A model generated the notes under the pieces. The model was not told where the DNA came from. It was given only the letters and a program-made list of their open reading frames with translations, and did no database searches. A program made the translations under genes and the position numbers. Below are positions 3,088 through 17,063 of a stretch of 22,141 nt of DNA, piece by piece (position 1 is the stretch's first letter; each line of letters opens with the position of its first letter). Source of the stretch: a virus (taxonomy: Duplodnaviria > Heunggongvirae > Uroviricota > Caudoviricetes); IMG/VR virus record IMGVR_UViG_2675903433_000026, positions 1 through 22,141 of that record; one strand, written 5' to 3'.

Positions 3088-3163
3088 TGGTGGCCCCTAC
3101 CGGACTTGAACCGGTGACCGTGCGATTATGAGTCGCCAGCTCTAACCACTGAGCTAAAGGGCC
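3088..3163 (-). tRNA. tRNA with CAU anticodon, most similar in pattern to the lysidine-type tRNA-Ile2 (ileX-like); tRNA-Met not excluded
   Basis: 76-nt cloverleaf read on the minus strand: acceptor GGCCCTT/AGGGGCC, anticodon arm GGCGACTCATAATCGC, T-loop TTCAAGT, encoded CCA. Confidence 0.85.
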
Positions 3164-4464: not shown

Positions 4465-4540
4465 TGGTGCCGATTAACGGGATCGAACCGCTGACCATTC
4501 GCTTACAAAGCGACTGCTCTACCAACTGAGCTAAATCGGC
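4465..4540 (-). tRNA. tRNA-Thr (anticodon UGU)
   Basis: 76-nt cloverleaf: acceptor GCCGATT/AATCGGC, anticodon loop TTTGTAA, T-loop TTCGATC, encoded CCA. Confidence 0.85.
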
Positions 4541-4544
4541 AATG

Positions 4545-4631
4545 TGGTGGGGAGTGATGGAGTCGAACCACCCGAGTCGCAATGACAGTAGATTTACAGT
4601 CTACCCCGCTACCCCTACGGACTAACTCCCC
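4545..4631 (-). tRNA. Type II tRNA with GUA anticodon (tRNA-Tyr-like) with a long variable arm and atypical D arm
   Basis: 87 nt: acceptor GGGGAGT/ACTCCCC, anticodon stem GTAGA/TCTAC with loop CTGTAAA, long variable stem-loop (GTC ATTGC GAC), T-loop TTCGACT, encoded CCA. The D-arm pairing is non-canonical, so identity is less certain. Confidence 0.6.
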
Positions 4632-4636
4632 TAAAG

Positions 4637-4711
4637 TGGCGATGGTGGGTGGATTCGAACTACCGACCAGTTGGTTAACAGCCAACTGCTCTACCGCTGA
4701 GCTACACCATC
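4637..4711 (-). tRNA. tRNA-Asn (anticodon GUU)
   Basis: 75 nt: acceptor GATGGTG/CACCATC, anticodon stem GTTGG/CCAAC with loop CTGTTAA, T-loop TTCGAAT, encoded CCA. Confidence 0.85.
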
Positions 4712-5379: not shown

Positions 5380-5396
5380 AAATTTATTAGAGCAAT
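5380..5396 (-). promoter_or_regulatory. C1-repressor-type operator (17/17 match) followed by a TAATAT -10-like hexamer, at the head of the tRNA-upl-plp-tRNA-ban operon
   Basis: Minus strand reads ATTGCTCTAATAAATTT then attagtg TAATAT; the operator overlaps the last codons and stop of the methyltransferase gene. Confidence 0.7.
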
Positions 5397-8300
5397 ATAG
5401 CTATAACGTCATGAGCAACACCTCGAGTGTCTCCCTTACAAGACACAGAACGTCTGGCAAAAAGAGGTTCCACTCTGAAGCCACTGTCATGATAAAGCTC
5501 TCTGATGTTTGGCGCGCCACTGTTAGTAATGAGAACTTTCGCACCTCGACGATGAGCATCCGTCAACAGAGACACCAGGCGTTTTTGCTCTTCAAACTTA
5601 AAGTCATGACCGGAATAGTTCGTGAATCCCTCTGTATTTGGAAGCGGTTCATACGGCGGATCGCAAAAGATGACATCTCCTTCTCCGGCAGCTTCAATCA
5701 CCGCTGCAAAATCACCGCATACAAACTCAGACCGCCCTTCCGCACCGAGGAAGGCTTCCATCTCCTGTAATGGGAAATACGGAGTTTTATACTTCCCATA
5801 ACCGACATTGAACTCACCGGCCTGGTTGTAACGCGTCAATCCGTTAAAACAATGTCGGTTCAGGAACAAAAACGCCGCTGCGCGATGTAAATCATCATAG
5901 ACTTGTTTGTTAAACGCATTCCGTACTGCCAGGTATCCTTCCTGTGTGTTGTAGTCCTGGAAGAAACGATGTGCCAGAGTGATAAGTGAATGCGCCTCGC
6001 GTTGCAGAGTCTTGTAAAAGTTAATCAGGTCAGCATTCACATCATTTAGCAGATTTTCCTGGTATCCGGCATTCATGAAGACAGCTCCGCCACCAACGAA
6101 AGGTTCAATCAGGCGCTTCCCTTCTGGCAAATAGCGAAAGATTTGTTCCAGAACACCAAATTTTCCACCAGCCCATTTGAATATGGACCGTTCGAATTCT
6201 GCCGCTGGTTTAACTTTTCGCTCTTTTGTTTCACTCCCTTCCTTCTGCCGACATGCAGCCTTGGCAATCCGATCGCCAATCCAGCGCATTACTGGTATCG
6301 CCATACTATTGCCGATCGCTTTGTAACGCGGTCCGTCAGCTGCAAGCATCGCGGCCTCTTCTTCGCTTAAATCTGGATAGTGATTGCGAAGATATGCCAG
6401 TTCATCTGAATTAACTTTTTTACGCTTTTCCGTCGGGATCAACGTATGCCCATCAGGAAAACCTTGCAGCCTTTCACATTCGACAGGGGTAAGACGGCGG
6501 ACAGCTACTTCTGCGTTTCTTACTTCATAGCAAACAGCTGTTGGATTTTTAGCCATTAGAGATGGTGAAGTATTCTTAGTTGCAGCATGTTGTGTACCGC
6601 TCATACGCTCAGGAAAAGCCAATGTAACAAGATGCTCATGGCTTTCTTGCTCACGTGCCCGCAATGTACCATGCCCTTCTGACCAAAAACCTGCTCCTGT
6701 GCTGCTAAAAACGGCAAGGTCAGTGGCATCTTTAAAATCTCTTGCCTTTACTGTCGATGCGGTTTCATCGTCAATATATTCCCCAAATGCTGCCATCCTG
6801 AAAGCGTTTACGGCTTTCGTCGATTTCATACTGGGTGGCATGTCAGCGTGTAGGCATGGATTTAGGCTTTCGCCACTGATTGCAGCGCCATTTGCAATAA
6901 TGGCGGAAGCGATTTCCTTCTTTTTTCGGCTCGGCGCAATATTCCGGCGCACGCCTTCGAACTCAAAAAGTACCGTTGCGGGATCGAGGTCTGTTCGAGC
7001 ACTTGCGACAACAAACACGCGTCGGCGTCGTTGTGCCACTCCGAAGTATTGGGCATCAAGGATTCTCCAGGCCACCTTTCGCTGCGGTCCATAAATACAA
7101 CCACACTGCGGCCACTTTGGAGCATGGCAACCGGTTTTGCCATCCCACCGCCAGAACGCGTTACTTTTTCCTGATTCAGGTCGATCACCTGGTTCAAATG
7201 GCGCATCTTCTCCAGCCAATCCGGCAAGGAAACATCCGAAGGCGTTATCTGCCGATGACAAGACTCCTGGGACATTTTCCCAGACGATAACGGATGGTTT
7301 GAGAAATGACTCAGCCCGTTTGTCGTCAACTGCATTTGCAAGCTCCACATACTTTAAAGTTAGCGCGCCACGCTCATCATCAAGCCCACCACGTAATCCC
7401 GCGATACTGAATGCCTGACAGTTATGGACCACCGCACCATTGAGGATATAGGAATGATCACCTTCGACTTCTATGTTGTATACAGTATCTAGGCCTACCG
7501 ATTTAAACTCTTTGACTGTTCGTAAAAGCATTCCATGAGCCAATCTTGATTTACGTGACAATTTCTGCGGGCAGATTGTTACCTGATAATAATTCCGTTG
7601 ATTTACCACGCGATCCTCGATCACTTTTTTGGGCTCAACTTCAATAAAGCTGACCGAAGAAACATAACCACAAGTCTGTGACAACCCCGCAACGCCCCAA
7701 GCAAGCGCAGAACTAACACTATTAATTCTAAATCCCGCTTTACCACTTGGTGTCCCATCAGTATCAAGATAGCCTTGTAAAAACACATGACGCAATGGAT
7801 GCGACATCACCCATGCAGGGATACGCTTAGCATGGCTTAACTCGCCAAAATGTTCATTAAGCCAATTGGCATAACACGTATCATTCAAGGTTACTTTGAT
7901 GCTCCCTCGGATTTCGCTTGCCACGGAAAATATGTTTTCTGGTATGCGGCAATGAAACTTTCTCAATTTCTGGCAATTTATGCCAAAAACAACCGCCTTC
8001 TTAGATTTACCTCTCCATCTCCTAATATATCCATCGCCAACATAAGCGCCCGCAAGATACATAGCCTGTTCTTCAGACAAGAACCGAGAACAAATATCTG
8101 GAAATGCAATATTGAAATTAGTTAGAGCGCACCATTGATATCCCGGCATATCACATGCTGCTCGCCATTCCGGTTCAGACAACAACTCTCTCTTAAAATA
8201 TGTGCCATTTTTCCGGGTGTTTTGGGCTTTCCACCGAACAGCCAGGAAGGGATGGTCATTGGTTGTTCTTATACCTAAAGGCTGCCCAACGGCATTAAGT

Positions 8301-8674
8301 AACCCCGTATTAGCTATTTTTGAACCAACTCTTTTTACTTGTTGTAACCGCCCGAGATGACTGACTACGTAATCGCCAGGGCAAACATCTTCTATTGGTT
8401 TATAACCATTTTTACAAAGAACCATATGCCCCGCGGTAAAACATGGTGTCCCTCCCACCAGCACATCAGGGGCTTCAATTTCTCCAGCCTGGACTTTTTG
8501 GGCGAGTTTTGTCATGTCGCCAAGGTTGGCGACATGGGGCCAGCGGAGCGCAAGAACGGCCGATGGAAAAGGCTCGATTTCAGCAAACCACGCCGGACGC
8601 ATACCCAACGGTTCCCAGGCAATACTCGCGGCTTCAATTCCACTGCAAACAGATCCATAGCACAGCTCTTTCAC
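5387..8674 (-). CDS. dmt: Bifunctional DNA methyltransferase: N-terminal C5-cytosine MTase domain interrupted by an intein, C-terminal Dam-like N6-adenine MTase domain (1095-aa precursor; 754 aa after intein removal)
   Basis: C5-MTase motifs GGTP|CQAFSIAG (motif IV, split by the insertion), VWENVPG (ENV), QRRRRVF. C-terminal Dam-type motifs [10 protein letters not shown] (AdoMet binding) and DPPY. GGAGAGG Shine-Dalgarno. Confidence 0.9.
7421..8443 (-). mobile_element. Intein (341 aa) with LAGLIDADG homing-endonuclease domain, inserted before the catalytic Cys of the C5-MTase PC motif
   Basis: Starts CFTAGHMVL (block A, Cys1), block B TTNDH, two LAGLIDADG motifs ([11 protein letters not shown] and [11 protein letters not shown]), C-terminal [21 protein letters not shown] followed by the +1 Cys of CQAFS. 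Junction codons checked on the sequence (Pro TGG-rc at 8444-8446, Cys 8441-8443, His-Asn 7421-7426, +1 Cys 7418-7420). Confidence 0.85.
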
Positions 8675-9853: not shown

Positions 9854-9924
9854 CTGACGACTCCAAACAAATGCCCATTGAAGGGCGATGGCTGAATGGT
9901 ACCGAAAACACGACATAAAAAACA

Positions 9925-9941
9925 ATATTTATTAGAGCAAT
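9925..9941 (-). promoter_or_regulatory. C1-repressor-type operator (16/17 match) at the head of the uhr-hrdC-dmt operon
   Basis: Minus strand reads ATTGCTCTAATAAATAT; located in the divergent intergenic region between the minus-strand uhr/hrdC/dmt genes and the plus-strand genes from 10023. Confidence 0.65.
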
Positions 9942-10022
9942 TTTACAGTAAGTAAACGCCATACAGACCACAAATAACCTAAGTTAAAATAACGAAAATC
10001 AGAGCAAATCATTGGTGATGAC

Positions 10023-10307
10023 GTGGAAAGTATTGCAACAAAAGACAGCATTTGTTCGGGGCACGGAGGATTCCCATCCAGGCCTCCTGTAGAGAGTGAA
10101 CCACTACTTAAAGTCAACGGAGTCGAAGTGTTAGTTGATGGTAAGCAATATGCACAGCATACCGATGGAAACAGTACGCACGGTGGGCAAGCTATATCAA
10201 CCAGGGCATGGTTTACCGTCAATGGTAAAGGGGTCGTATGCGTTGGTGACCCTGTTTCATGCGGCTCTACCGTAGCGTCAGGAGACGGCCTGGTTCAGGT
10301 AAGTTAG
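10023..10307 (+). CDS. Small Gly/Cys-rich protein, PAAR-repeat-like (94 aa, GTG start)
   Basis: Repeated beta-strand-like motifs around CSGHGG, VNGVEVLVDG, STHGG and VNGKGVVCVGDPVSCG resemble PAAR/spike-tip repeat proteins. No in-frame ATG, so only a GTG start is possible. Weak assignment. Confidence 0.3.
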   Translation: MESIATKDSICSGHGGFPSRPPVESEPLLKVNGVEVLVDGKQYAQHTDGNSTHGGQAISTRAWFTVNGKGVVCVGDPVSCGSTVASGDGLVQVS

Positions 10308-10316
10308 GAGATATCA

Positions 10317-11104
10317 TGCTGGAAAAAGACTACCAGTTATCCGCATATAAAAAATTGGCCGCAGCCGGTGGGATGAAAACACCTGGTGCCATAACATCGG
10401 CACGAAACAGTGCTAACACGGCAAAACAGCTTGCAGAAGAATTGATCGGATTAATTTTGGATACAATTGTCTATCCCGACACTATTACCAGCTATGTTTC
10501 AACGATCAGAACAACCACAACCGGCTTAACGAACATTGGAGAACTGGCAACTAAGCACGCGGACCTGTTGGCTGGTTATGCAGATCTGTCAATGCTGCTT
10601 CAACTCGATATTGGTTGGGATGTTTACTGCCGTGCTAATGAGCGAGAAGTATCAGAACTGCCTATCTCTATTGCCATTGGTGATGTGACTATTACTAAAT
10701 CGCTTGAGGACGCTGTAAACGCGCTTAATACATCAAGTTTAGTCGCTGCTATGGGTGAGATTAACCAGACCCTTAACACTGGCTCAGGAAGCTCGTCAGG
10801 CTCTGGTTCAGGCGGCGGCACTGCCACTCCACCACCAGCACTAACAGAAGAGCAAATTGAATCTCTGAAAGTAGCAACTGAACAGTTTGGGGTTGTTTTC
10901 AACCAGACAACAGCGCCCACAACTGCGTTACAACAGCAGTATGAACGAGCGAATGAAAGCGCCAACGTAGCCATAACTGCTTATAACCATGCTATCGGTA
11001 CCGCGCTTGCGGAAGCATCAGCAAATAAGGCCAGCACAGCCAGCGCAGTCGCCGCTTTGGTTCCTGATTCTGTTCTTGATGAATTAAACAAAGCGGCACG
11101 GTAA
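10317..11104 (+). CDS. Hypothetical two-domain protein (262 aa) with a central Gly/Ser/Pro linker
   Basis: AGGAG Shine-Dalgarno then ATG at 10317. Linker TGSGSSSGSGSGGGTATPPP separates an N-terminal domain from an Ala/Gln-rich C-terminal domain. No TM segment and no recognisable catalytic motif. Confidence 0.5.
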
Positions 11105-11143
11105 CAAAGGACTTCATTGATAATTTTTCTTCAGGAGGAAGAC

Positions 11144-11566
11144 ATGTCATTCTTTTCTACGTTAAAAACAGCTTTGTCTTTGAAGGAGAAACTTGCTGCT
11201 ACTGGTGTTCTTGTTCTGATTTGCGCACTTGTTGGTGCTGGGTTTGCATGGGAACGTCATCAGCTAAAGCAAGCCATGGAGAAAATTGGCAGTCTTGATC
11301 AGGCTGTTAAGGAACGTGATAAGTCAATAATGGATCTTAACCAGACCATTGAGACGATGAACAAAGCAGAGCAACATTTTCACAGCCAGGAAGTGAAAAA
11401 TGAATCAGAACAAGCCAAATATGCTGACAGGCAAATGGAACGAAAAGCTGAAGTTCAGAAACAACTGGTTGCGGCGGGTAATGTTCGCCAGCGCATTCCT
11501 GCTGACACTCAGCGGTTGCTCCGGGAGTCGATCAGCGAATTTAACGCCGACGCCGACAAAGGTTAA
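11144..11566 (+). CDS. Inner-membrane spanin (Rz-like, i-spanin)
   Basis: AGGAGG Shine-Dalgarno; N-terminal TM helix (TGVLVLICALVGAGFAW) followed by a coiled-coil periplasmic domain; C-terminal VAAGNVRQRI resembles the lambda Rz VAAGRRRLHI region. Confidence 0.7.
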   Translation: MSFFSTLKTALSLKEKLAATGVLVLICALVGAGFAWERHQLKQAMEKIGSLDQAVKERDKSIMDLNQTIETMNKAEQHFHSQEVKNESEQAKYADRQMERKAEVQKQLVAAGNVRQRIPADTQRLLRESISEFNADADKG

Positions 11567-11732
11567 CCACCCTGCCCCCAAAAGTGCGTTTATGTGCAGG
11601 ATGCCAGAGTTTAGCAGTGAATATTTTGATGATCTGCCAGCGTATATCCTCGATACAGAAACGATGCTGATGGGGATTAACAGGAAGAATCGCAACGTTA
11701 ATGATTACAACCGCGCTATCAGCGGTAACTAA
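11481..11732 (+). CDS. Outer-membrane lipoprotein spanin (Rz1-like, o-spanin), +1 frame, overlapping the 3' end of the i-spanin gene
   Basis: Lipoprotein signal MFASAFLLTLSGC (lipobox LSGC), Pro-rich mature region (TPTPTKVNHPAP), one additional Cys. Starts inside the Rz-like gene and extends beyond it (overlapped architecture). Confidence 0.65.
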   Translation: MFASAFLLTLSGCSGSRSANLTPTPTKVNHPAPKSAFMCRMPEFSSEYFDDLPAYILDTETMLMGINRKNRNVNDYNRAISGN

Positions 11733-11743
11733 AAGGGATTTTT

Positions 11744-12136
11744 ATGTCTGATAAAGTAACAGTAAAGCAAACTATCAACAAAGCGACTTCAATCTACAAA
11801 ATTGAGCACATCACTGTTGGCAAGCCAGGATCTGAACAATACCGTCATGCTTTCGAGCTTGCCGATCAGCTTGGTTTAAAACACCCGGATTGCATCGAGC
11901 ATGTATTTCCGACCTATGCTGATGAGCAATGTACTCATGTTCTTACCGAAGAGGATTTTTTCAGCACTGAAGAACGAGAAGGCGTTGATCGCTGCATTGG
12001 TGTGATTTGCTCTTCAGTGAGTTATGAGTTATTCCCTAATGTCCATGAAAATGGTGGTATTGGATACCAATTCCTGTACGAAGGCGATGAGCTTAAATGT
12101 TATGAACATGGTCTTCTTATCGAAAGCGTAGAATAA
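11744..12136 (+). CDS. Small acidic Cys/His-rich hypothetical protein (130 aa)
   Basis: AAGGGA Shine-Dalgarno; residues HPDC, EQCTH, DRC, CSS and KCYEHG suggest possible metal binding; followed by a terminator hairpin. Confidence 0.5.
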   Translation: MSDKVTVKQTINKATSIYKIEHITVGKPGSEQYRHAFELADQLGLKHPDCIEHVFPTYADEQCTHVLTEEDFFSTEEREGVDRCIGVICSSVSYELFPNVHENGGIGYQFLYEGDELKCYEHGLLIESVE

Positions 12137-12150
12137 TACCCTTCCTTCCA

Positions 12151-12175
12151 ACCGGCTATGTTGGCCGGTTTATTC
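12151..12175 (+). terminator. Rho-independent terminator-like hairpin
   Basis: Stem ACCGGC/GCCGGT with 7-nt loop, followed by a T-rich tract (TTTATT). Confidence 0.55.
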
Positions 12176-12178
12176 AAC

Positions 12179-12286
12179 TTATCCACAGCATAGATCCAAT
12201 AAACAGATCCTAAAGAGAACCCAGGAAGATCCAAAGAAGATCCCGGATCGCTGTAAGCCGCGCCATTTCTGGCCTGAAATGGGATC
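12179..12286. promoter_or_regulatory. Replication origin elements: DnaA box plus a cluster of GATC (Dam) sites
   Basis: Perfect DnaA box TTATCCACA at 12179-12187; five GATC sites within 12193-12249, embedded in repeated AGATCC-type heptamers, and a sixth at 12283-12286. A DnaA-like box with one mismatch (TTATCAACA) lies on the minus strand at 12414-12422. Confidence 0.75.
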
Positions 12287-12287
12287 A

Positions 12288-12394
12288 ACATTGACTATAC
12301 GCGATTTTATGTTGACTGTGCACGATTTATTGTTGACTGCACGCGATTTATTGTTGACTATATGCGACAGAAACATTGACTGTACGCGATTTTA
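12288..12394 (+). repeat. Five direct iterons (about 21-22 bp period) upstream of repA (origin/incC-type)
   Basis: Units (c/t)aTTGACTnTacGCGAtTTa at about 12288, 12310, 12331, 12352 and 12374. Confidence 0.85.
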
Positions 12395-12469
12395 GAGCCT
12401 GACTATTCACAGTTGTTGATAACTGCAATCCAGATGACGCCAGGCCGCGCCACATATGGAGAAACCACG

Positions 12470-13354
12470 ATGCTGGAAGAAAATAAAGGCTTCCTTAGCG
12501 TTGAAGAAGTTGCAGGAAATACAGGAGAAATCCACAGCCTGAAACCCAATAACAATAGCACTATACAACCCATTGCTTTGTTGCGCTTAGGTGTGTTTGT
12601 GCCAACCTTAAAATCTACCAATGTGGCACTACGTCGCGGATCGTCAGTTACTACAAACACAACGAACGCAACCGAAGAACTATCAAGCCTCAAAATTGTT
12701 GAGCAGGAAGGCTATGAGGGAATTGAAATTCATGGTCCACGCCTGGATATGGATACTGATTTTAAGGTGTGGGTGGGCATAACCTCCGCGTTGTTTGACT
12801 ACGCACCTGATGATGACGGCATAATCACCCTGCCATTCTCCGAGTTTGCCGATCGATGCGGCTATCCACGTAAGCGCCTTTCAAAGGCGTTCCGTAAAAG
12901 TATTGATGACTCTCTGACACGCATTCAGCAGACAGTTGTCAAATTCCGCTTCCCGGCGGCAAAAGGTCATCTCAATAACATTAACGTCAACTTGTTGGCA
13001 TATAGCAGCCTGAATACCGAGCTTGATGTTATCGAGATCCAGCCGCAGAAACAGCTATCTGAACTTTACTATGTTGACTATAAGCGAATCCTGAAGCTGA
13101 AGATGCTGGATAAGCTCGGGCGCAAAGAGACGGCCAAGGTACTGTATACATTCTTTGAGGCTCTACCCGCCAACCCGGCACCTGTCAGCATTGAGCGCCT
13201 TAGAGCAAGGCTTAATCTCAAATCATCCGTTAGCGTGCAAAATAGCGTTATCAGAAAAGCCATGAAAGATTTGGAAGCTATTGAATATCTTAAATTTTCA
13301 GAGATAAAAAACGGCAGGAAAATCGGCTTTCAGATCCATAAGCGCAATCCATAA
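12470..13354 (+). CDS. repA: Iteron-binding replication initiator RepA (294 aa from the ATG at 12470)
   Basis: Positioned between the two iteron arrays; GGAGA Shine-Dalgarno before the ATG at 12470 (the ORF track begins at 12413). Protein shows the conserved core pattern (ALLRLGVFVP, GPRLDMDTDFKVW) I recognise from P1-type RepA initiators. Confidence 0.8.
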   Translation: MLEENKGFLSVEEVAGNTGEIHSLKPNNNSTIQPIALLRLGVFVPTLKSTNVALRRGSSVTTNTTNATEELSSLKIVEQEGYEGIEIHGPRLDMDTDFKVWVGITSALFDYAPDDDGIITLPFSEFADRCGYPRKRLSKAFRKSIDDSLTRIQQTVVKFRFPAAKGHLNNINVNLLAYSSLNTELDVIEIQPQKQLSELYYVDYKRILKLKMLDKLGRKETAKVLYTFFEALPANPAPVSIERLRARLNLKSSVSVQNSVIRKAMKDLEAIEYLKFSEIKNGRKIGFQIHKRNP

Positions 13355-13625
13355 TATTGACTATATGCGATAGCGAGAAGTTGACTATAGGCGACATTCG
13401 TTGACGCTGGTGGATTTTTGCTGGCGTCAATATTCTGCAAGTCGCTATTGAGATGGCTTTTAGGGTCATTTCATCGCGTATAGTCAACGTTTCTCCCGAC
13501 AATATCTTACATAGTCGATCTTTGGTGGAGTTAAATCGACTACAGTCAACTTTTGACTGTAGTCACATCGCGCATAGTCAACTATTCACATTAACTTTCG
13601 CGCATAGTCAACATTTGCGCGGTTC
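13355..13625. repeat. Downstream iteron array in both orientations (incA-type copy-control locus)
   Basis: About nine copies of the TTGACTATA(G/T)GCG-type iteron or its reverse complement (CGCGCATAGTCAAC and similar). Confidence 0.8.
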
Positions 13626-13646
13626 TCATCAAGCAGTGGTATTGAT

Positions 13647-13982
13647 ATGCAAGAAGAGAAACAACACTACCTCTACGTTCTGGTGCCGGAGAACGGAGAT
13701 ACTTTTAAAATCGGCATTTCATGTGGTCCATTGGCACGGTTTAAAGGGCTACAAGTGAGTCCCGATTTTGCGCTTTCACGGGTCTATCGTGGTACGCGTT
13801 TGGCAATGGTTAATCTTGAGCGGGCTTTACACGCAACCTTTTTCCCCTGGAATGCGCCGTGGGAGAAAAGCGCCGGTGGCGGGCATACTGAATGGTTTAC
13901 ACGAGAGTGTCTTGATAAGGTTTTGGCTCATATCGAATATCTAAATGATATGTGGGGAGGGATTCTCGAGCGCATTAAGTAG
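13647..13982 (+). CDS. T5orf172-type (GIY-YIG-related) domain protein (111 aa)
   Basis: Pattern YLYVLVPENGDTFKIGIS ... LERALHATFF ... HTEWF matches the T5orf172 domain signature; ends at TAG 13980-13982. Confidence 0.6.
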   Translation: MQEEKQHYLYVLVPENGDTFKIGISCGPLARFKGLQVSPDFALSRVYRGTRLAMVNLERALHATFFPWNAPWEKSAGGGHTEWFTRECLDKVLAHIEYLNDMWGGILERIK

Positions 13983-14051
13983 AATGATTTACTTCAGCGT
14001 CCAGTAGATGCTGCTCGCTCTTTCGAAAAAGAACTGGATGTTACTTCTATC

Positions 14052-14456
14052 GTGACTTTCAAAGATGACGCAGGAATGAGGGACGTGGCTTATGTCTCCA
14101 TATCTGGCTATGAACCGGACGCGATCCGCGCTCAATGTGAATTGCTGAAAGCAATGTTTATGCTTCGGACTAAATATCCCTGGGAGACAGGGCGGGTGTG
14201 CTTCCCTATGGAAGAGTTAACCGCCACCATTGATTCTCAGCTTTACCACGATAATCCAGAGAAGTTTTTTAGCCTTTTAGCCGGTAATGGGCTTAACTGT
14301 GTGTCCGGGCTGGGGCGAAGTAGAATCCAACATGCCTCGCTCTTCGGTCCCTTCTTTTACGATCGACACGGGTACTTTGAGGCTGAACTTCCGGCGCTTA
14401 CGCGTGCTATAGATACTATCGATTTCGAACGATTATTCGCTGCTCTTAGCAAATAA
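14052..14456 (+). CDS. Hypothetical protein (134 aa from GTG; first in-frame ATG at 14076), in the same frame as the upstream T5orf172 ORF
   Basis: Open frame continues immediately after the TAG at 13980; no good ribosome-binding site before the GTG or ATG; followed by a strong terminator. Confidence 0.4.
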   Translation: MTFKDDAGMRDVAYVSISGYEPDAIRAQCELLKAMFMLRTKYPWETGRVCFPMEELTATIDSQLYHDNPEKFFSLLAGNGLNCVSGLGRSRIQHASLFGPFFYDRHGYFEAELPALTRAIDTIDFERLFAALSK

Positions 14457-14463
14457 CACTGAT

Positions 14464-14485
14464 GCCCCTGAACGGGGCTTTTTTG
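14464..14485 (+). terminator. Rho-independent terminator
   Basis: GCCCC-TGAAC-GGGGC hairpin followed by TTTTTT. Confidence 0.75.
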
Positions 14486-14624
14486 TGCCTTTCTTGTAAC
14501 TCTCAATCGTGCAAAATGAACAAAACATGCAGAGAATGCCATGTACAAGCATCTACGCATACATTATTATTTTATGCAGCATTTTTAATTAAATTCAAAA
14601 ATACAGCATAAAGGATGACTTTCG

Positions 14625-15821
14625 ATGAGTGATTCCAGCCAGCTTCACAAGGTTGCTCAAAGAGCAAACAGAATGCTCAATGTTCTGACTGAACAAGTAC
14701 AGTTGCAAAAGGATGAGCTACACGCGAACGAGTTTTACCAGGTCTATGCGAAAGCGGCACTGGCAAAATTGCCTCTACTGACTCGAGCGAACGTTGACTA
14801 TGCCGTAAGTGAAATGGAAGAAAAGGGTTATGTTTTCGATAAACGCCCTGCTGGCTCTTCAATGAAATATGCGATGTCAATTCAGAACATCATTGACATA
14901 TATGAACATCGCGGAGTGCCAAAATACCGGGATCGCTACAGCGAAGCGTATGTGATTTTCATCTCCAATCTTAAAGGCGGTGTGTCAAAAACTGTATCGA
15001 CGGTTTCTCTGGCGCATGCAATGCGTGCTCACCCTCATCTTCTGATGGAAGATTTAAGGATTCTGGTTATTGACCTTGATCCGCAATCTTCAGCAACGAT
15101 GTTTTTAAGCCATAAACACTCTATTGGTATCGTAAACGCAACATCTGCACAGGCTATGTTGCAGAATGTAAGCCGTGAAGAGCTGTTAGAGGAGTTTATT
15201 GTTCCTTCTGTTGTACCTGGGGTTGACGTTATGCCTGCGTCGATTGACGATGCCTTTATTGCATCCGATTGGAGAGAGCTGTGCAATGAGCATCTACCGG
15301 GTCAGAACATCCATGCTGTCCTGAAAGAAAATGTGATTGATAAGCTGAAGAGCGATTATGACTTTATCCTCGTTGATAGTGGTCCTCACCTTGACGCCTT
15401 CCTGAAAAATGCTTTGGCCTCGGCCAATATACTGTTTACACCTCTGCCGCCAGCAACTGTCGATTTCCACTCATCGCTTAAATACGTTGCCCGCCTTCCT
15501 GAGTTGGTGAAACTCATTTCGGATGAAGGCTGCGAGTGCCAGCTTGCGACTAACATTGGTTTTATGTCCAAGTTGAGTAACAAGGCAGATCATAAGTATT
15601 GCCATAGCCTGGCTAAAGAAGTGTTCGGTGGGGATATGCTCGATGTCGTCCTCCCTCGCCTTGACGGTTTTGAACGTTGCGGCGAGTCTTTTGACACTGT
15701 TATTTCAGCTAACCCGGCAACGTATGTTGGTAGTGCTGATGCATTGAAGAACGCGCGAATTGCCGCGGAAGATTTTGCTAAAGCAGTTTTTGACCGTATT
15801 GAATTTATCAGATCTAACTGA
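14625..15821 (+). CDS. parA: Partition ATPase ParA (type Ia, with N-terminal DNA-binding extension; 398 aa)
   Basis: Deviant Walker A KGGVSKT, length and N-terminal helix-turn-helix extension typical of P1-type ParA; placed immediately upstream of parB and parS. Confidence 0.95.
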   Translation: MSDSSQLHKVAQRANRMLNVLTEQVQLQKDELHANEFYQVYAKAALAKLPLLTRANVDYAVSEMEEKGYVFDKRPAGSSMKYAMSIQNIIDIYEHRGVPKYRDRYSEAYVIFISNLKGGVSKTVSTVSLAHAMRAHPHLLMEDLRILVIDLDPQSSATMFLSHKHSIGIVNATSAQAMLQNVSREELLEEFIVPSVVPGVDVMPASIDDAFIASDWRELCNEHLPGQNIHAVLKENVIDKLKSDYDFILVDSGPHLDAFLKNALASANILFTPLPPATVDFHSSLKYVARLPELVKLISDEGCECQLATNIGFMSKLSNKADHKYCHSLAKEVFGGDMLDVVLPRLDGFERCGESFDTVISANPATYVGSADALKNARIAAEDFAKAVFDRIEFIRSN

Positions 15822-15837
15822 GGAGTAAGAAACCCCC

Positions 15838-16839
15838 ATGTCAAAGAAAAACAGACCAACAATTGGGCGAACCCTTAATCCTTCAATATTAAGCGGATTT
15901 GATAGTTCTTCAGCCTCTGGCGATCGAGTCGAGCAGGTATTCAAGTTATCAACTGGTCGCCAGGCCACATTTATTGAAGAGGTAATACCTCCGAACCAGG
16001 TAGAAAGCGATACCTTTGTTGATCAGCATAACAACGGGCGTGACCAGGCATCTCTTACGCCAAAATCATTAAAAAGTATCCGAAGCACTATTAAGCATCA
16101 GCAATTTTACCCTGCAATAGGTGTTAGACGGGGTACAGGGAAAATTGAAATTTTGGATGGTTCCCGGCGTCGAGCTTCTGCCATCTTAGAGAACGTAGGG
16201 TTGCGGGTTTTAGTCACGGACCAGGAGATCAGCGTTCAGGAAGCGCAAAATTTAGCGAAAGACGTTCAGACAGCATTGCAGCACAGCATTCGAGAAATAG
16301 GTCTGCGTTTGATGCGAATGAAAAATGATGGGATGAGTCAGAAGGATATTGCAGCCAAAGAAGGGCTGTCTCAGGCTAAGGTCACGCGTGCTCTCCAGGC
16401 AGCGAGTGCTCCGGAAGAATTAGTCGCCCTTTTCCCTGTGCAGTCGGAATTAACCTTTTCGGACTACAAAACGCTTTGTGCTGTTGGCGACGAAATGGGG
16501 AACAAGAATTTAGAGTTTGATCAGCTTATTCAAAACATATCCCCGGAAATAAACGACATCTTATCCATTGAAGAAATGGCCGAAGATGAAGTTAAAAATA
16601 AAATCCTGCGCTTGATAACAAAGGAAGCCTCACTACTCACGGATAAAGGTTCTAAAGATAAGTCCGTAGTTACTGAATTATGGAAATTTGAGGACAAGGA
16701 TCGCTTTGCAAGGAAGCGCGTGAAAGGCCGTGCATTTTCTTATGAGTTTAATCGACTTTCAAAAGAGCTACAGGAAGAACTCGACAGGATGATTGGGCAT
16801 ATCCTTAGAAAGAGCCTCGATAAAAAGCCGAAGCCTTAA
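15838..16839 (+). CDS. parB: Centromere-binding partition protein ParB (333 aa)
   Basis: ParB/Spo0J-like core (GRRRASA arginine-rich motif), helix-turn-helix region, follows parA after a 16-nt gap; parS immediately downstream. Confidence 0.95.
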   Translation: MSKKNRPTIGRTLNPSILSGFDSSSASGDRVEQVFKLSTGRQATFIEEVIPPNQVESDTFVDQHNNGRDQASLTPKSLKSIRSTIKHQQFYPAIGVRRGTGKIEILDGSRRRASAILENVGLRVLVTDQEISVQEAQNLAKDVQTALQHSIREIGLRLMRMKNDGMSQKDIAAKEGLSQAKVTRALQAASAPEELVALFPVQSELTFSDYKTLCAVGDEMGNKNLEFDQLIQNISPEINDILSIEEMAEDEVKNKILRLITKEASLLTDKGSKDKSVVTELWKFEDKDRFARKRVKGRAFSYEFNRLSKELQEELDRMIGHILRKSLDKKPKP

Positions 16840-16843
16840 ACTT

Positions 16844-16926
16844 TCGCCATTCAAATTTCACTATTAACCTACTGTTTTTAAAGTAAATCCATCTAAAATT
16901 TCAAGGTGAAATCGCCACGATTTCAC
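16844..16926. promoter_or_regulatory. parS: parS partition site (centromere)
   Basis: Box B TCGCCA at 16844-16849 and 16912-16917; Box A ATTTCAC at 16855-16861 and 16920-16926 with an inverted copy GTGAAAT at 16906-16912; AT-rich putative IHF-binding region between the arms. Confidence 0.85.
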
Positions 16927-17063
16927 CTTGGATTTTACCTTCCTCCCCTACTCCCGAAAAAATAAAAAAATTGCTTGTCACGAGAAAGTCAACAAGTGAC
17001 TTTCAATAAAATCTCTTCCGAAAAGGGATTCACACAAGTGCCTTGTGTTTAAGGAAGAGTAAA

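What the first reader, a model, noticed from the sequence alone, without database searches (positions are those of the whole stretch)
10023..11104. Uncharacterised two-gene module at the head of the plus-strand operon (small Cys/Gly-rich protein + Gly/Ser-linker protein)
Downstream of the divergent operator-containing intergenic region there are two genes with no function I can assign. The first (94 aa, GTG start) has PAAR/spike-tip-like repeats with Cys and His. The second (262 aa) has two domains joined by a long TGSGSSSGSGSGGG-TATPPP linker. They sit just upstream of a spanin pair, so they could be lysis-associated, structural, or an accessory/defence-type cargo pair.
Basis: inference. Interest (0 to 1): 0.5.

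Follow-up and report, generated by a model that had tools for sequence, protein, structure and literature searches.

The report
P1 tail spike tip and cap
These two genes are the already described phage P1 genes upfC and upfB, which encode the pointed tip of the tail's membrane-piercing spike and a helical "tripod" protein attached to that tip, so the finding is real but not new.

Summary
The window is a P1-like phage-plasmid. The two ORFs at 10023-11104 are real and are P1 upfC and upfB (95.7% and 90.5% protein identity). UpfC (94 aa, GTG start) is a PAAR-type spike-tip protein. It is 97% identical to solved PDB chain 9vyi_A "UpfC", homologous to T4 gp5.4, and keeps the His3-Cys metal site. 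UpfB (262 aa) belongs to a small, unnamed family found only in P1-like elements of Enterobacterales. A 2026 cryo-EM study of P1 places it as a "tripod" on the spike tip, and its function is unknown. Published deletions and CRISPRi knockdowns show both genes are dispensable for plaque formation.

New points, all minor:
- The 262-aa UpfB start (ATG 10316) is correct. The 281-aa GenBank start is not conserved.
- The PAAR gene lies upstream of upfB in all nine lineages examined, although UpfB falls to 24% identity.
- UpfB is predicted to be one compact all-helical unit (pLDDT 95, pTM 0.88), so the Gly/Ser stretch is a loop, not an interdomain linker.
- A degenerate P1 late-promoter motif lies 32 nt upstream of upfC. 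A relative has an exact copy at the same distance.

Verdict: already known, low interest. What UpfB does remains open.

The parts
9925..9941 (-). C1 repressor operator (P1 Op68/Odmt) in the divergent intergenic region. In P1 it controls the leftward dmt promoter. This is context, not part of the module.
   Evidence: One mismatch to the 17-bp C1 operator consensus. Five matches in the window against 0.14 expected. P1 annotation.
9972..9990 (+). Candidate degenerate P1 late (Lpa-type) promoter, AAATAACCT-aagt-TAAAAT, 32 nt upstream of the upfC start. Inferred, not shown.
   Evidence: P1 LPs, LPdar and LP23 read AAGTNACTT-N4-TANNAT. The window copy has 2 mismatches. Relative L003 has an exact copy at the same 32-nt distance, and it is the only exact hit in 12.8 kb.
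10014..10019 (+). Shine-Dalgarno-like GGTGAT upstream of the upfC GTG.
   Evidence: Read from the sequence. It is complementary to the 16S rRNA 3' end (GAUCACC). Duplex energy with the short anti-SD used is only -2.8 kcal/mol.
10023..10307 (+). upfC: 94-aa PAAR-type tail spike-tip protein with a GTG start. Metal-site residues are His14, His46, His53 and Cys80.
   Evidence: 97% identical to PDB 9vyi_A 'UpfC' (E=1e-59). T4 gp5.4 at E=7e-8 and PAAR 4jiv_D at E=3e-4. Pfam PAAR_motif 27.2 bits, PHROG 281 E=3.7e-30. Relatives start at the same position with ATG, TTG or GTG.
10306..10310 (+). AGGAG Shine-Dalgarno for upfB. It overlaps the upfC stop codon TAG (10305-10307), an arrangement typical of translational coupling.
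   Evidence: Sequence. Anti-SD duplex -7.3 kcal/mol, against -2.8 for the upstream ATG at 10259.
10316..11104 (+). upfB: 262-aa acidic all-alpha protein, the 'tripod' placed on the spike tip in P1 cryo-EM.
   Evidence: 90.5% identical to P1 UpfB. PHROG 1559 E=7e-138. All 44 aligned homologues start at ML(D/E/S/N). AF2 pLDDT 95.1, pTM 0.88, 11 helices. Virion placement comes from PMC12810830.
10775..10840 (+). Codes for the Gly/Ser/Thr/Pro-rich loop of UpfB (residues about 154-175). Length and sequence vary across the family.
   Evidence: It is the only lower-confidence stretch of the model, pLDDT 66-78. Variable and gapped columns. Small indels among close alleles. No DNA tandem repeat.
11144..11566 (+). 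ppfA: Rz-like i-spanin, 140 aa from the ATG preceded by AGGAGGA. Neighbouring gene in the same transcription direction.
   Evidence: PHROG 89 E=1.5e-25. SD energy -10.3 kcal/mol. P1 annotation.
11400..11732 (+). mlp: Rz1-like o-spanin lipoprotein, embedded in and overlapping ppfA. Neighbouring gene.
   Evidence: PHROG 30284 E=2.2e-77. P1 annotation.

Best explanation
The two genes encode the outermost parts of the P1-type contractile tail. UpfC is a single-copy PAAR-fold cone that caps the blunt end of the trimeric gp5 beta-helix spike. A buried His3-Cys metal site stabilises it, and it sharpens the spike that is driven through the outer membrane when the sheath contracts. UpfB is an acidic, all-helical protein that docks on the faces of the UpfC cone and forms a three-legged 'tripod' at the very tip of the virion. 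Both are made late with the other virion proteins. upfB is probably translationally coupled to upfC, and the pair is probably transcribed from a weak Lpa-type late promoter. In relatives the pair heads the late operon that continues into the spanins, major capsid and sheath genes. In P1 the plasmid rep/par module has been inserted into that operon. Neither gene is needed for plaque formation in the laboratory. By analogy with T4 gp5.4, they most likely improve the efficiency of envelope penetration and DNA delivery on particular host envelopes. Shown here or in the literature: gene identity, the UpfC fold and location, conserved gene pairing, purifying selection, and dispensability. Inferred: the function of UpfB, its stoichiometry, the late promoter, and translational coupling.
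For: - **Identity.** The region is 95-98% identical in DNA to P1 and P1-like phages, and the genes are annotated there as upfC and upfB. Protein identity to P1 is 95.7% and 90.5%.
- **UpfC.** It matches PDB 9vyi_A 'UpfC' (E=1e-59), T4 gp5.4 in 5iv5/4ku0 (E about 1e-7) and PAAR 4jiv_D. His14, His46, His53 and Cys80 align with those of gp5.4 and are kept in all relatives. Pfam PAAR and PHROG 281 both hit.
- **Literature.** HHpred assigned UpfC as the spike tip, and its deletion plaques normally (PMC9024508). Cryo-EM built UpfC on gp5 and fitted an AlphaFold3 UpfB model into tripod density at the tip (PMC12810830). CRISPRi scored both genes non-essential (PMC10695390). T4 gp5.4 is dispensable for assembly but needed for fitness and on deep-rough LPS hosts (PMC12407873).
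- **Gene pairing.** A 94-95 aa PAAR gene lies upstream of upfB in all nine lineages examined, with UpfB only 24-47% identical.
- **Selection.** dN/dS is 0.066 for upfC and 0.23 for upfB.
- **UpfB fold.** The model is confident and all-helical, which agrees with the published 'alpha-helical tripod'.
- **Operon and promoter.** In L003 the order is upfC, upfB, spanins, gene 23, then the next large genes (probably sheath), with no rep/par module. An exact late-promoter motif lies 32 nt upstream of that upfC, and a 2-mismatch copy lies at the same distance in the window.
Against: - UpfB's place in the virion rests on one study. The map there is of medium resolution and was fitted with a predicted model, not built.
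- UpfB is not in the PDB, and it is not mentioned in the main text of the 2022 P1 virion proteome paper, which includes its table of detected proteins.
- Two papers disagree on stoichiometry: three trimers or three copies.
- The window's late-promoter motif has 2 mismatches in the -22 box and P1's has 3. About 0.65 such matches per window are expected by chance, and P1's curators did not annotate it.
- No phenotype is known for either deletion, so the proposed role in penetration is an analogy.
Confidence: 0.85

Rival explanations
1. UpfB, or the pair, is a lysis accessory that works with the downstream Rz/Rz1 spanins, for example by timing or assisting outer-membrane disruption.
For: upfB lies directly upstream of the spanin pair in the window, in P1 and in most relatives. 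UpfB is not mentioned in the main text of the 2022 virion proteome paper.
Against: Cryo-EM places UpfB at the tail tip. It has no TM segment (maximum Kyte-Doolittle 19-residue window 1.23), and it is an acidic soluble helical protein with no lipobox. Lineage L014 keeps the PAAR-UpfB pair but has no spanin after it. The pairing that is always kept is with the PAAR gene, not with the spanins. The deletion and the knockdown show no plaque defect.
Confidence: 0.04
2. The pair is accessory cargo. On this reading it is a PAAR-borne toxin or effector with its partner, as in type VI secretion, or an anti-defence or defence moron unrelated to virion structure.
Confidence: 0.04
3. UpfB is bound to the spike tip but acts as more than a passive cap. 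It would be a fast-evolving, host-specific factor released into the outer membrane or periplasm on penetration, acting on the membrane, sensing the envelope or guiding the tip. It would be conditionally essential on some hosts.
For: In the same genomes UpfB diverges much faster than UpfC: 24-47% against 54-74% identity, with dN about three times higher. It occupies the first point of contact with the cell. T4 gp5.4 is conditionally essential on LPS mutants. The model weakly resembles membrane-active helical bundles.
Against: There is no direct evidence. Faster divergence could reflect relaxed constraint on a dispensable decoration. dN/dS of 0.23 indicates purifying, not diversifying, selection overall. 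The structural matches are generic.
Confidence: 0.2

Closest known systems
Phage P1 UpfC (P1_gp066; PDB 9vyi chain A)
   Same: Same gene: 94 aa, GTG start, same genomic position, and 95.7% identity (3 substitutions beyond the start codon).
   Different: Only allelic differences: E2 for A, V71 for I, S86 for A.
Phage P1 UpfB (P1_gp065), the 'tripod' of the P1 baseplate (PMC12810830)
   Same: Same gene and position, 90.5% identity, full-length match to PHROG 1559.
   Different: The window carries the commoner of two alleles: 97% identical to a 2155-member cluster, against 90% to the P1 reference type. GenBank annotates P1 UpfB as 281 aa, but conservation and the SD site support 262 aa.
Phage T4 gp5.4 spike tip (PDB 4KU0, 5IV5)
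   Same: Homologous PAAR-fold cone of about 95 aa with the conserved His3-Cys site. Single copy on the gp5 beta-helix, and dispensable for plaques.
   Different: About 30% identity. P1 gp5 has no lysozyme domain. No tripod has been resolved on T4. T4 gene 5.4 lies next to gene 5, whereas upfC lies far from the P1 baseplate genes, beside the plasmid replicon.
T6SS PAAR proteins (for example Vibrio cholerae VCA0105, PDB 4JIV; PF05488)
   Same: Same fold family, and the same role of sharpening a VgrG/gp5-type spike (E=3e-4; Pfam hit).
   Different: UpfC scores well below the NCBIfam T6SS equivalog cut-off (36.7 against 124 bits). It is a phage virion protein, has no effector extension, and has no T6SS neighbours.
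T4 gp5.1, which a 2026 paper proposes binds a face of gp5.4 (PMC13611949)
   Same: A small gene next to the spike-tip gene and expressed late. It is modelled as docking on the PAAR cone.
   Different: No detectable sequence relationship to the UpfB family (hhalign probability 0.07%). It is 178 aa, and it lies upstream of the tip gene, whereas upfB lies downstream.
DUF7217 (PF23854) proteins of FelixO1-like and Ackermannviridae phages
   Same: Best viral structural matches to the UpfB model: Foldseek E 5e-4 to 9e-3 and TM 0.41-0.56 over the full length, with similar size. They share a short N-terminal motif, Q..(A/I)F(K)..L...G.(K)(T/S)P.
   Different: Profile-profile probability is only 4.9%, over 21 columns. 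No UpfB family member hits the Pfam model. In phage Wc4 the gene lies among tRNA genes, and no UpfC-like PAAR gene is detectable.

Membership tests
PAAR-type spike-tip proteins (PF05488; T4 gp5.4 / P1 UpfC group) | Sequence match to the PAAR profile | tested here: met
   Pfam PAAR_motif scores 27.2 bits against a cut-off of 27, which is marginal. PHROG 281 gives E=3.7e-30 over residues 1-93. phmmer finds gp5.4 at E=7e-8 and 4jiv_D at E=3e-4.
PAAR-type spike-tip proteins (PF05488; T4 gp5.4 / P1 UpfC group) | Three His and one Cys forming the metal site near the cone apex | tested here: met
   His14, His46, His53 and Cys80 align with the corresponding residues of T4 gp5.4 and are conserved in relatives L003, L005, L007, L008 and L013-L015. 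Metal binding itself was not tested.
PAAR-type spike-tip proteins (PF05488; T4 gp5.4 / P1 UpfC group) | Conical beta fold seated on the end of a gp5/VgrG beta-helix | not testable with these tools
   This is inferred from 97% identity to solved chain 9vyi_A and from the published cryo-EM model. No independent model was made here.
PAAR-type spike-tip proteins (PF05488; T4 gp5.4 / P1 UpfC group) | Stand-alone cone of about 95 aa without an effector extension (phage type) | tested here: met
   The protein is 94 aa, and relatives are 94-95 aa.
T6SS PAAR (NCBIfam NF033420 equivalog) | Score above the curated cut-off | tested here: not met
   36.7 bits against a cut-off of 124. The protein is related to T6SS PAAR but is not a member of that equivalog.
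UpfB / P1 tripod family (PHROG 1559; no Pfam family) | Full-length sequence match to P1 UpfB | tested here: met
   PHROG 1559 gives E=7.3e-138 over residues 1-262 of 263 profile positions. Identity to P1 UpfB is 90.5%.
UpfB / P1 tripod family (PHROG 1559; no Pfam family) | Encoded directly downstream of the PAAR spike-tip gene in a P1-like element | tested here: met
   This holds in the window and in eight other lineages. One of them, L008, has an intervening 122-aa gene.
UpfB / P1 tripod family (PHROG 1559; no Pfam family) | All-alpha fold | tested here: met
   The AF2 model has pLDDT 95.1, pTM 0.88, 11 helices and no strands.
UpfB / P1 tripod family (PHROG 1559; no Pfam family) | Physical attachment to UpfC at the tail tip, with a defined copy number | not testable with these tools
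   The only evidence is the literature, which disagrees on three trimers or three copies.
Lysis cassette proteins (holin, spanin or lipoprotein type) | TM segment, signal peptide or lipobox in UpfB or UpfC | tested here: not met
   The maximum Kyte-Doolittle 19-residue window is 1.23 for UpfB and 0.76 for UpfC. Neither sequence contains a lipobox. There are no lysis PHROG hits.
Anti-phage defence or toxin cargo | Match to a known defence or toxin family | tested here: not met
   PADLOC gives no hits at E of 0.1 or below. No Pfam or NCBIfam toxin domains were found.
DUF7217 (PF23854) | Sequence or profile match | tested here: not met
   None of the 44 family members hits the Pfam model. hhalign probability is 4.9%. 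Only Foldseek similarity exists, with TM about 0.4-0.56.

The most novel reading that the evidence does not exclude
UpfB is a functional, host-specific tip factor and not an inert decoration. It would be a fast-evolving helical protein carried on the PAAR cone that first meets the outer membrane and is released there. It would act on or sense the envelope, much as effectors ride on T6SS PAAR tips, and would be conditionally essential on certain LPS or outer-membrane backgrounds. It would define a class of spike-tip cap proteins so far seen only in P1-like phage-plasmids.
Probability: 0.2. Interest if true: 0.5.

Novelty: already known. Interest (0 to 1): 0.15.

Why it matters
The result closes this finding. 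The practical value is in annotation. Nearly all database copies of UpfB are labelled "hypothetical protein", and no Pfam family covers it. The reference P1 record over-extends UpfB by 19 codons. Many records label the PAAR gene "phospholipase" or "membrane protein". The open biological question is small: what does a helical tripod on the sharpest point of a contractile tail do, and why is it confined to P1-like elements? The conserved pairing with the tip gene, and divergence about three times faster than the tip protein, suggest testing it on envelope mutants, as was done for T4 gp5.4.

Tried and rejected
- **DUF7217 lead.** Foldseek against BFVD put DUF7217 proteins on top. I fetched phage Wc4, confirmed that its 240-aa protein is DUF7217, built an alignment and ran hhalign against the UpfB family. 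Probability was 4.9%. Wc4 has no UpfC-like PAAR gene. The lead is not supported beyond fold-level resemblance.
- **T4 gp5.1 as a UpfB counterpart.** hhalign probability was 0.07%, so the two are not related in sequence.
- **Profile search with the 44-sequence alignment.** It reached no new relatives. A Pfam scan of all 44 members gave only noise.
- **The search for related loci with the alignment.** It failed because no stretch was conserved enough.
- **afdb50 fold library.** It was not available.
- **Tandem-repeat origin of the Gly/Ser loop.** Tandem Repeats Finder found no DNA repeat.
- **Sigma-70 promoter scan.** Nothing was found upstream of upfC on the + strand.
- **PADLOC.** No hits.
- **The P1 genome paper** (PMC523184) is not held in the library.

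Full report
**What is at 10023-11104**

The window is a P1-like (Punavirus) phage-plasmid. The stretch 9900-11750 is 98.6% identical to Escherichia phage vB_EcoM-Ro157c2YLVW and 95.3% identical to reference P1, NC_005856. In P1 the two ORFs are annotated as upfC (P1_gp066) and upfB (P1_gp065). They are followed by ppfA/mlp, upfA, oriR and repA. On the other side they are preceded, divergently, by uhr, hrdC and dmt, with the C1 operator Op68/Odmt in between.

- ORF 1 is 10023-10307, starts with GTG and encodes 94 aa.
- ORF 2 ends at 11104.
- The operator is at 9925-9941 with one mismatch.
- The downstream pair matches Rz and Rz1 spanin PHROGs.

**Are they real genes, and where do they start?**

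Both genes are under purifying selection. dN/dS between the window and P1 is 0.066 for upfC and 0.23 for upfB.

The upfC frame contains no Met codon at all, so a non-ATG start is required. The homologues in other lineages start at exactly the equivalent codon, using ATG, TTG or GTG. All are 94-95 aa. A GGTGAT Shine-Dalgarno-like element precedes the GTG.

Three results favour 10316:
- All 44 full-length family members begin ML(D/E/S/N) at the position of 10316, and Met1 is an invariant column.
- Relatives L003 and L005 have no in-frame start upstream.
- ATG 10316 has an AGGAG site (-7.3 kcal/mol) that overlaps the upfC stop codon, whereas ATG 10259 has essentially none.

**UpfC**

UpfC matches Pfam PAAR_motif just above the cut-off (27.2 against 27 bits) and PHROG 281 at E=3.7e-30. 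Against the PDB:
- It is 97% identical to chain 9vyi_A, deposited as "UpfC".
- It matches T4 gp5.4 (5iv5, 4ku0) at E of about 1e-7.
- It matches the T6SS PAAR protein 4jiv_D at E=3e-4.

His14, His46, His53 and Cys80 align with the metal-site residues of gp5.4 and are conserved in every relative. It does not reach the NCBIfam T6SS PAAR equivalog cut-off, as expected for a phage tip protein.

The published record agrees:
- Gonzales et al. 2022 identified UpfC by HHpred as the gp5.4-like spike tip and found that its deletion plaques normally (PMC9024508).
- A 2025 preprint and a 2026 PLoS Pathogens paper place a UpfC monomer on the gp5 trimer in P1 cryo-EM maps.
- A T4 study shows that gp5.4 is dispensable for assembly, improves fitness, and is required on deep-rough LPS hosts.

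**UpfB**

UpfB has no Pfam, NCBIfam, PADLOC or PDB sequence match. It does match PHROG 1559, "unknown function", over its full length.

An exhaustive HMMER scan of 1.84 billion cluster representatives found only 59 hits. About 40 are full-length, 245-265 aa and 21-60% identical. Named members come from Escherichia, Salmonella, Enterobacter, Citrobacter, Edwardsiella, Plesiomonas and Buttiauxella. They lie on contigs of 70-105 kb, typical of P1-like phage-plasmids.

With the 44-sequence alignment, AlphaFold2 gives a very confident all-helical model (pLDDT 95.1, pTM 0.88, 11 helices). Confidence falls to 66-78 only over the Gly/Ser/Thr/Pro stretch. A pTM this high for the whole chain means the parts before and after that stretch are placed confidently against each other. 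The stretch is therefore better read as a variable surface loop in one helical unit than as a linker between two independent domains. This is an inference, because I could not inspect coordinates. The loop varies in length and sequence across the family. It shows small indels among near-identical alleles.

The 2026 cryo-EM paper calls UpfB a novel "tripod" anchored on the spike tip. It fitted an AlphaFold3 model into a medium-resolution map and did not build the chain. A later paper describes three copies, not three trimers, and states that the tripod's role is unclear. Deletion and CRISPRi both score upfB as non-essential.

**Evidence from relatives**

I examined nine lineages: the window, P1, L003, L005, L007, L008, L013, L014 and L015. 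In all of them a 94-95 aa UpfC homologue lies upstream of the UpfB homologue. In seven the two are directly adjacent. L008 has one intervening gene. In L015 the PAAR gene had simply not been called.

Across these lineages UpfC stays 54-74% identical, while UpfB falls to 24-47%. The pairing that is always kept is with the tip gene and not with the spanins, because L014 has no spanin after UpfB. This fits a physical partnership. It argues against a lysis role and against a mobile cargo islet.

In L003 the gene order is upfC, upfB, spanins, gene 23 (major capsid), then the next large genes (probably sheath), with no replicon in between. P1's odd placement of these genes beside oriR/repA therefore looks like the result of the rep/par module being inserted into an ancestral late operon. 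This is an inference.

**Expression**

P1's annotated late promoters LPs, LPdar and LP23 read AAGTNACTT-N4-TANNAT. No exact -22 box lies upstream of upfC in the window. However, AAATAACCT-aagt-TAAAAT, with 2 mismatches, lies at 9972-9990, 32 nt before the GTG. L003 has an exact AAGTAACTT-tcca-TACACT, also 32 nt before its upfC start, and this is the only exact match in that 12.8-kb locus.

This positional agreement suggests a late promoter that is degenerate in P1, which would suit a virion gene pair. The window motif alone would not be significant, since about 0.65 such matches are expected per window. P1's curators did not annotate it.

**Leads that failed**

- The best viral structural matches to the UpfB model are DUF7217 proteins. 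Profile-profile comparison gives 4.9% probability over 21 N-terminal columns. The DUF7217 gene of phage Wc4 is not near any detectable UpfC-like gene.
- T4 gp5.1, recently proposed to dock on gp5.4, shows no similarity to UpfB.

**Verdict**

But the module is neither unknown nor new. It is the P1 spike tip UpfC and its tripod UpfB. The additions made here are the corrected UpfB start, the conserved pairing, the faster divergence of UpfB, the compact helical fold, the candidate late promoter and the operon-insertion inference. All are small refinements. What the tripod does remains open.

Noticed in passing
window 5387-8674 (-), insert at about 7417-8446: The dmt methyltransferase is 1095 aa here, against 754 aa in reference P1. 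The extra 340 aa or so carry Hint and LAGLIDADG domains. They interrupt the catalytic PCQ motif of the C5-cytosine methylase half (...GGTP|CFTAGHMV...VVHN|CQAFS...), with canonical intein ends. The same insert, at 99% identity or more, is in 5 P1-like phage records and 133 PLSDB plasmids, all annotated simply as Dmt or Dam-family methyltransferase. A literature search found no description of it.
   Followed up: partly
window 10259-10315, and P1 NC_005856 upfB (64827-63982): The reference P1 record annotates UpfB as 281 aa from an upstream ATG that overlaps upfC. Conservation of the ML(D/E) start in 44 homologues, the lack of an upstream start in relatives, and the SD site all indicate 262 aa.
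   Followed up: yes
L003 5662-9388; window 12137-16990: In a Salmonella relative the order upfC, upfB, spanins runs straight into the major capsid gene 23, behind one exact late promoter. In P1 and the window, upfA, oriR/repA/incA and parAB/parS lie between them, and gene 23 has its own LP23 at 16994. This suggests the plasmid maintenance module was inserted into a late operon.
   Followed up: partly
window 3088-3163 and 4465-4711 (-): ARAGORN calls four tRNA genes (Met, Thr, Tyr, Asn) near dmt and ban. From memory, reference P1 has three, so the set may differ. This was not checked.
   Followed up: no
phage records listed: Homologues of the spike-tip gene in T4-like phages are annotated variously as 'phospholipase', 'putative membrane protein', 'baseplate wedge subunit' or 'toxin'. 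PHROG 281 files the family under 'moron, auxiliary metabolic gene and host takeover'. These labels are misleading for a structural spike-tip protein.
   Followed up: no
window 11117-11566: The mechanical ORF for ppfA starts at TTG 11117 (149 aa). The ATG at 11144 has a strong AGGAGGA site (-10.3 kcal/mol) and gives the 140 aa annotated in P1.
   Followed up: yes
L011 26634-27356 (-) (Pectobacterium phage Wc4): DUF7217 proteins of FelixO1-like phages share an N-terminal motif with UpfB at the same position (T.QQK.IF.L...G.GF.(S/N)P against Q..AFK.L..AGG.KTP) and a similar predicted helical fold. The profile comparison is not significant, so any relationship is unresolved.
   Followed up: partly
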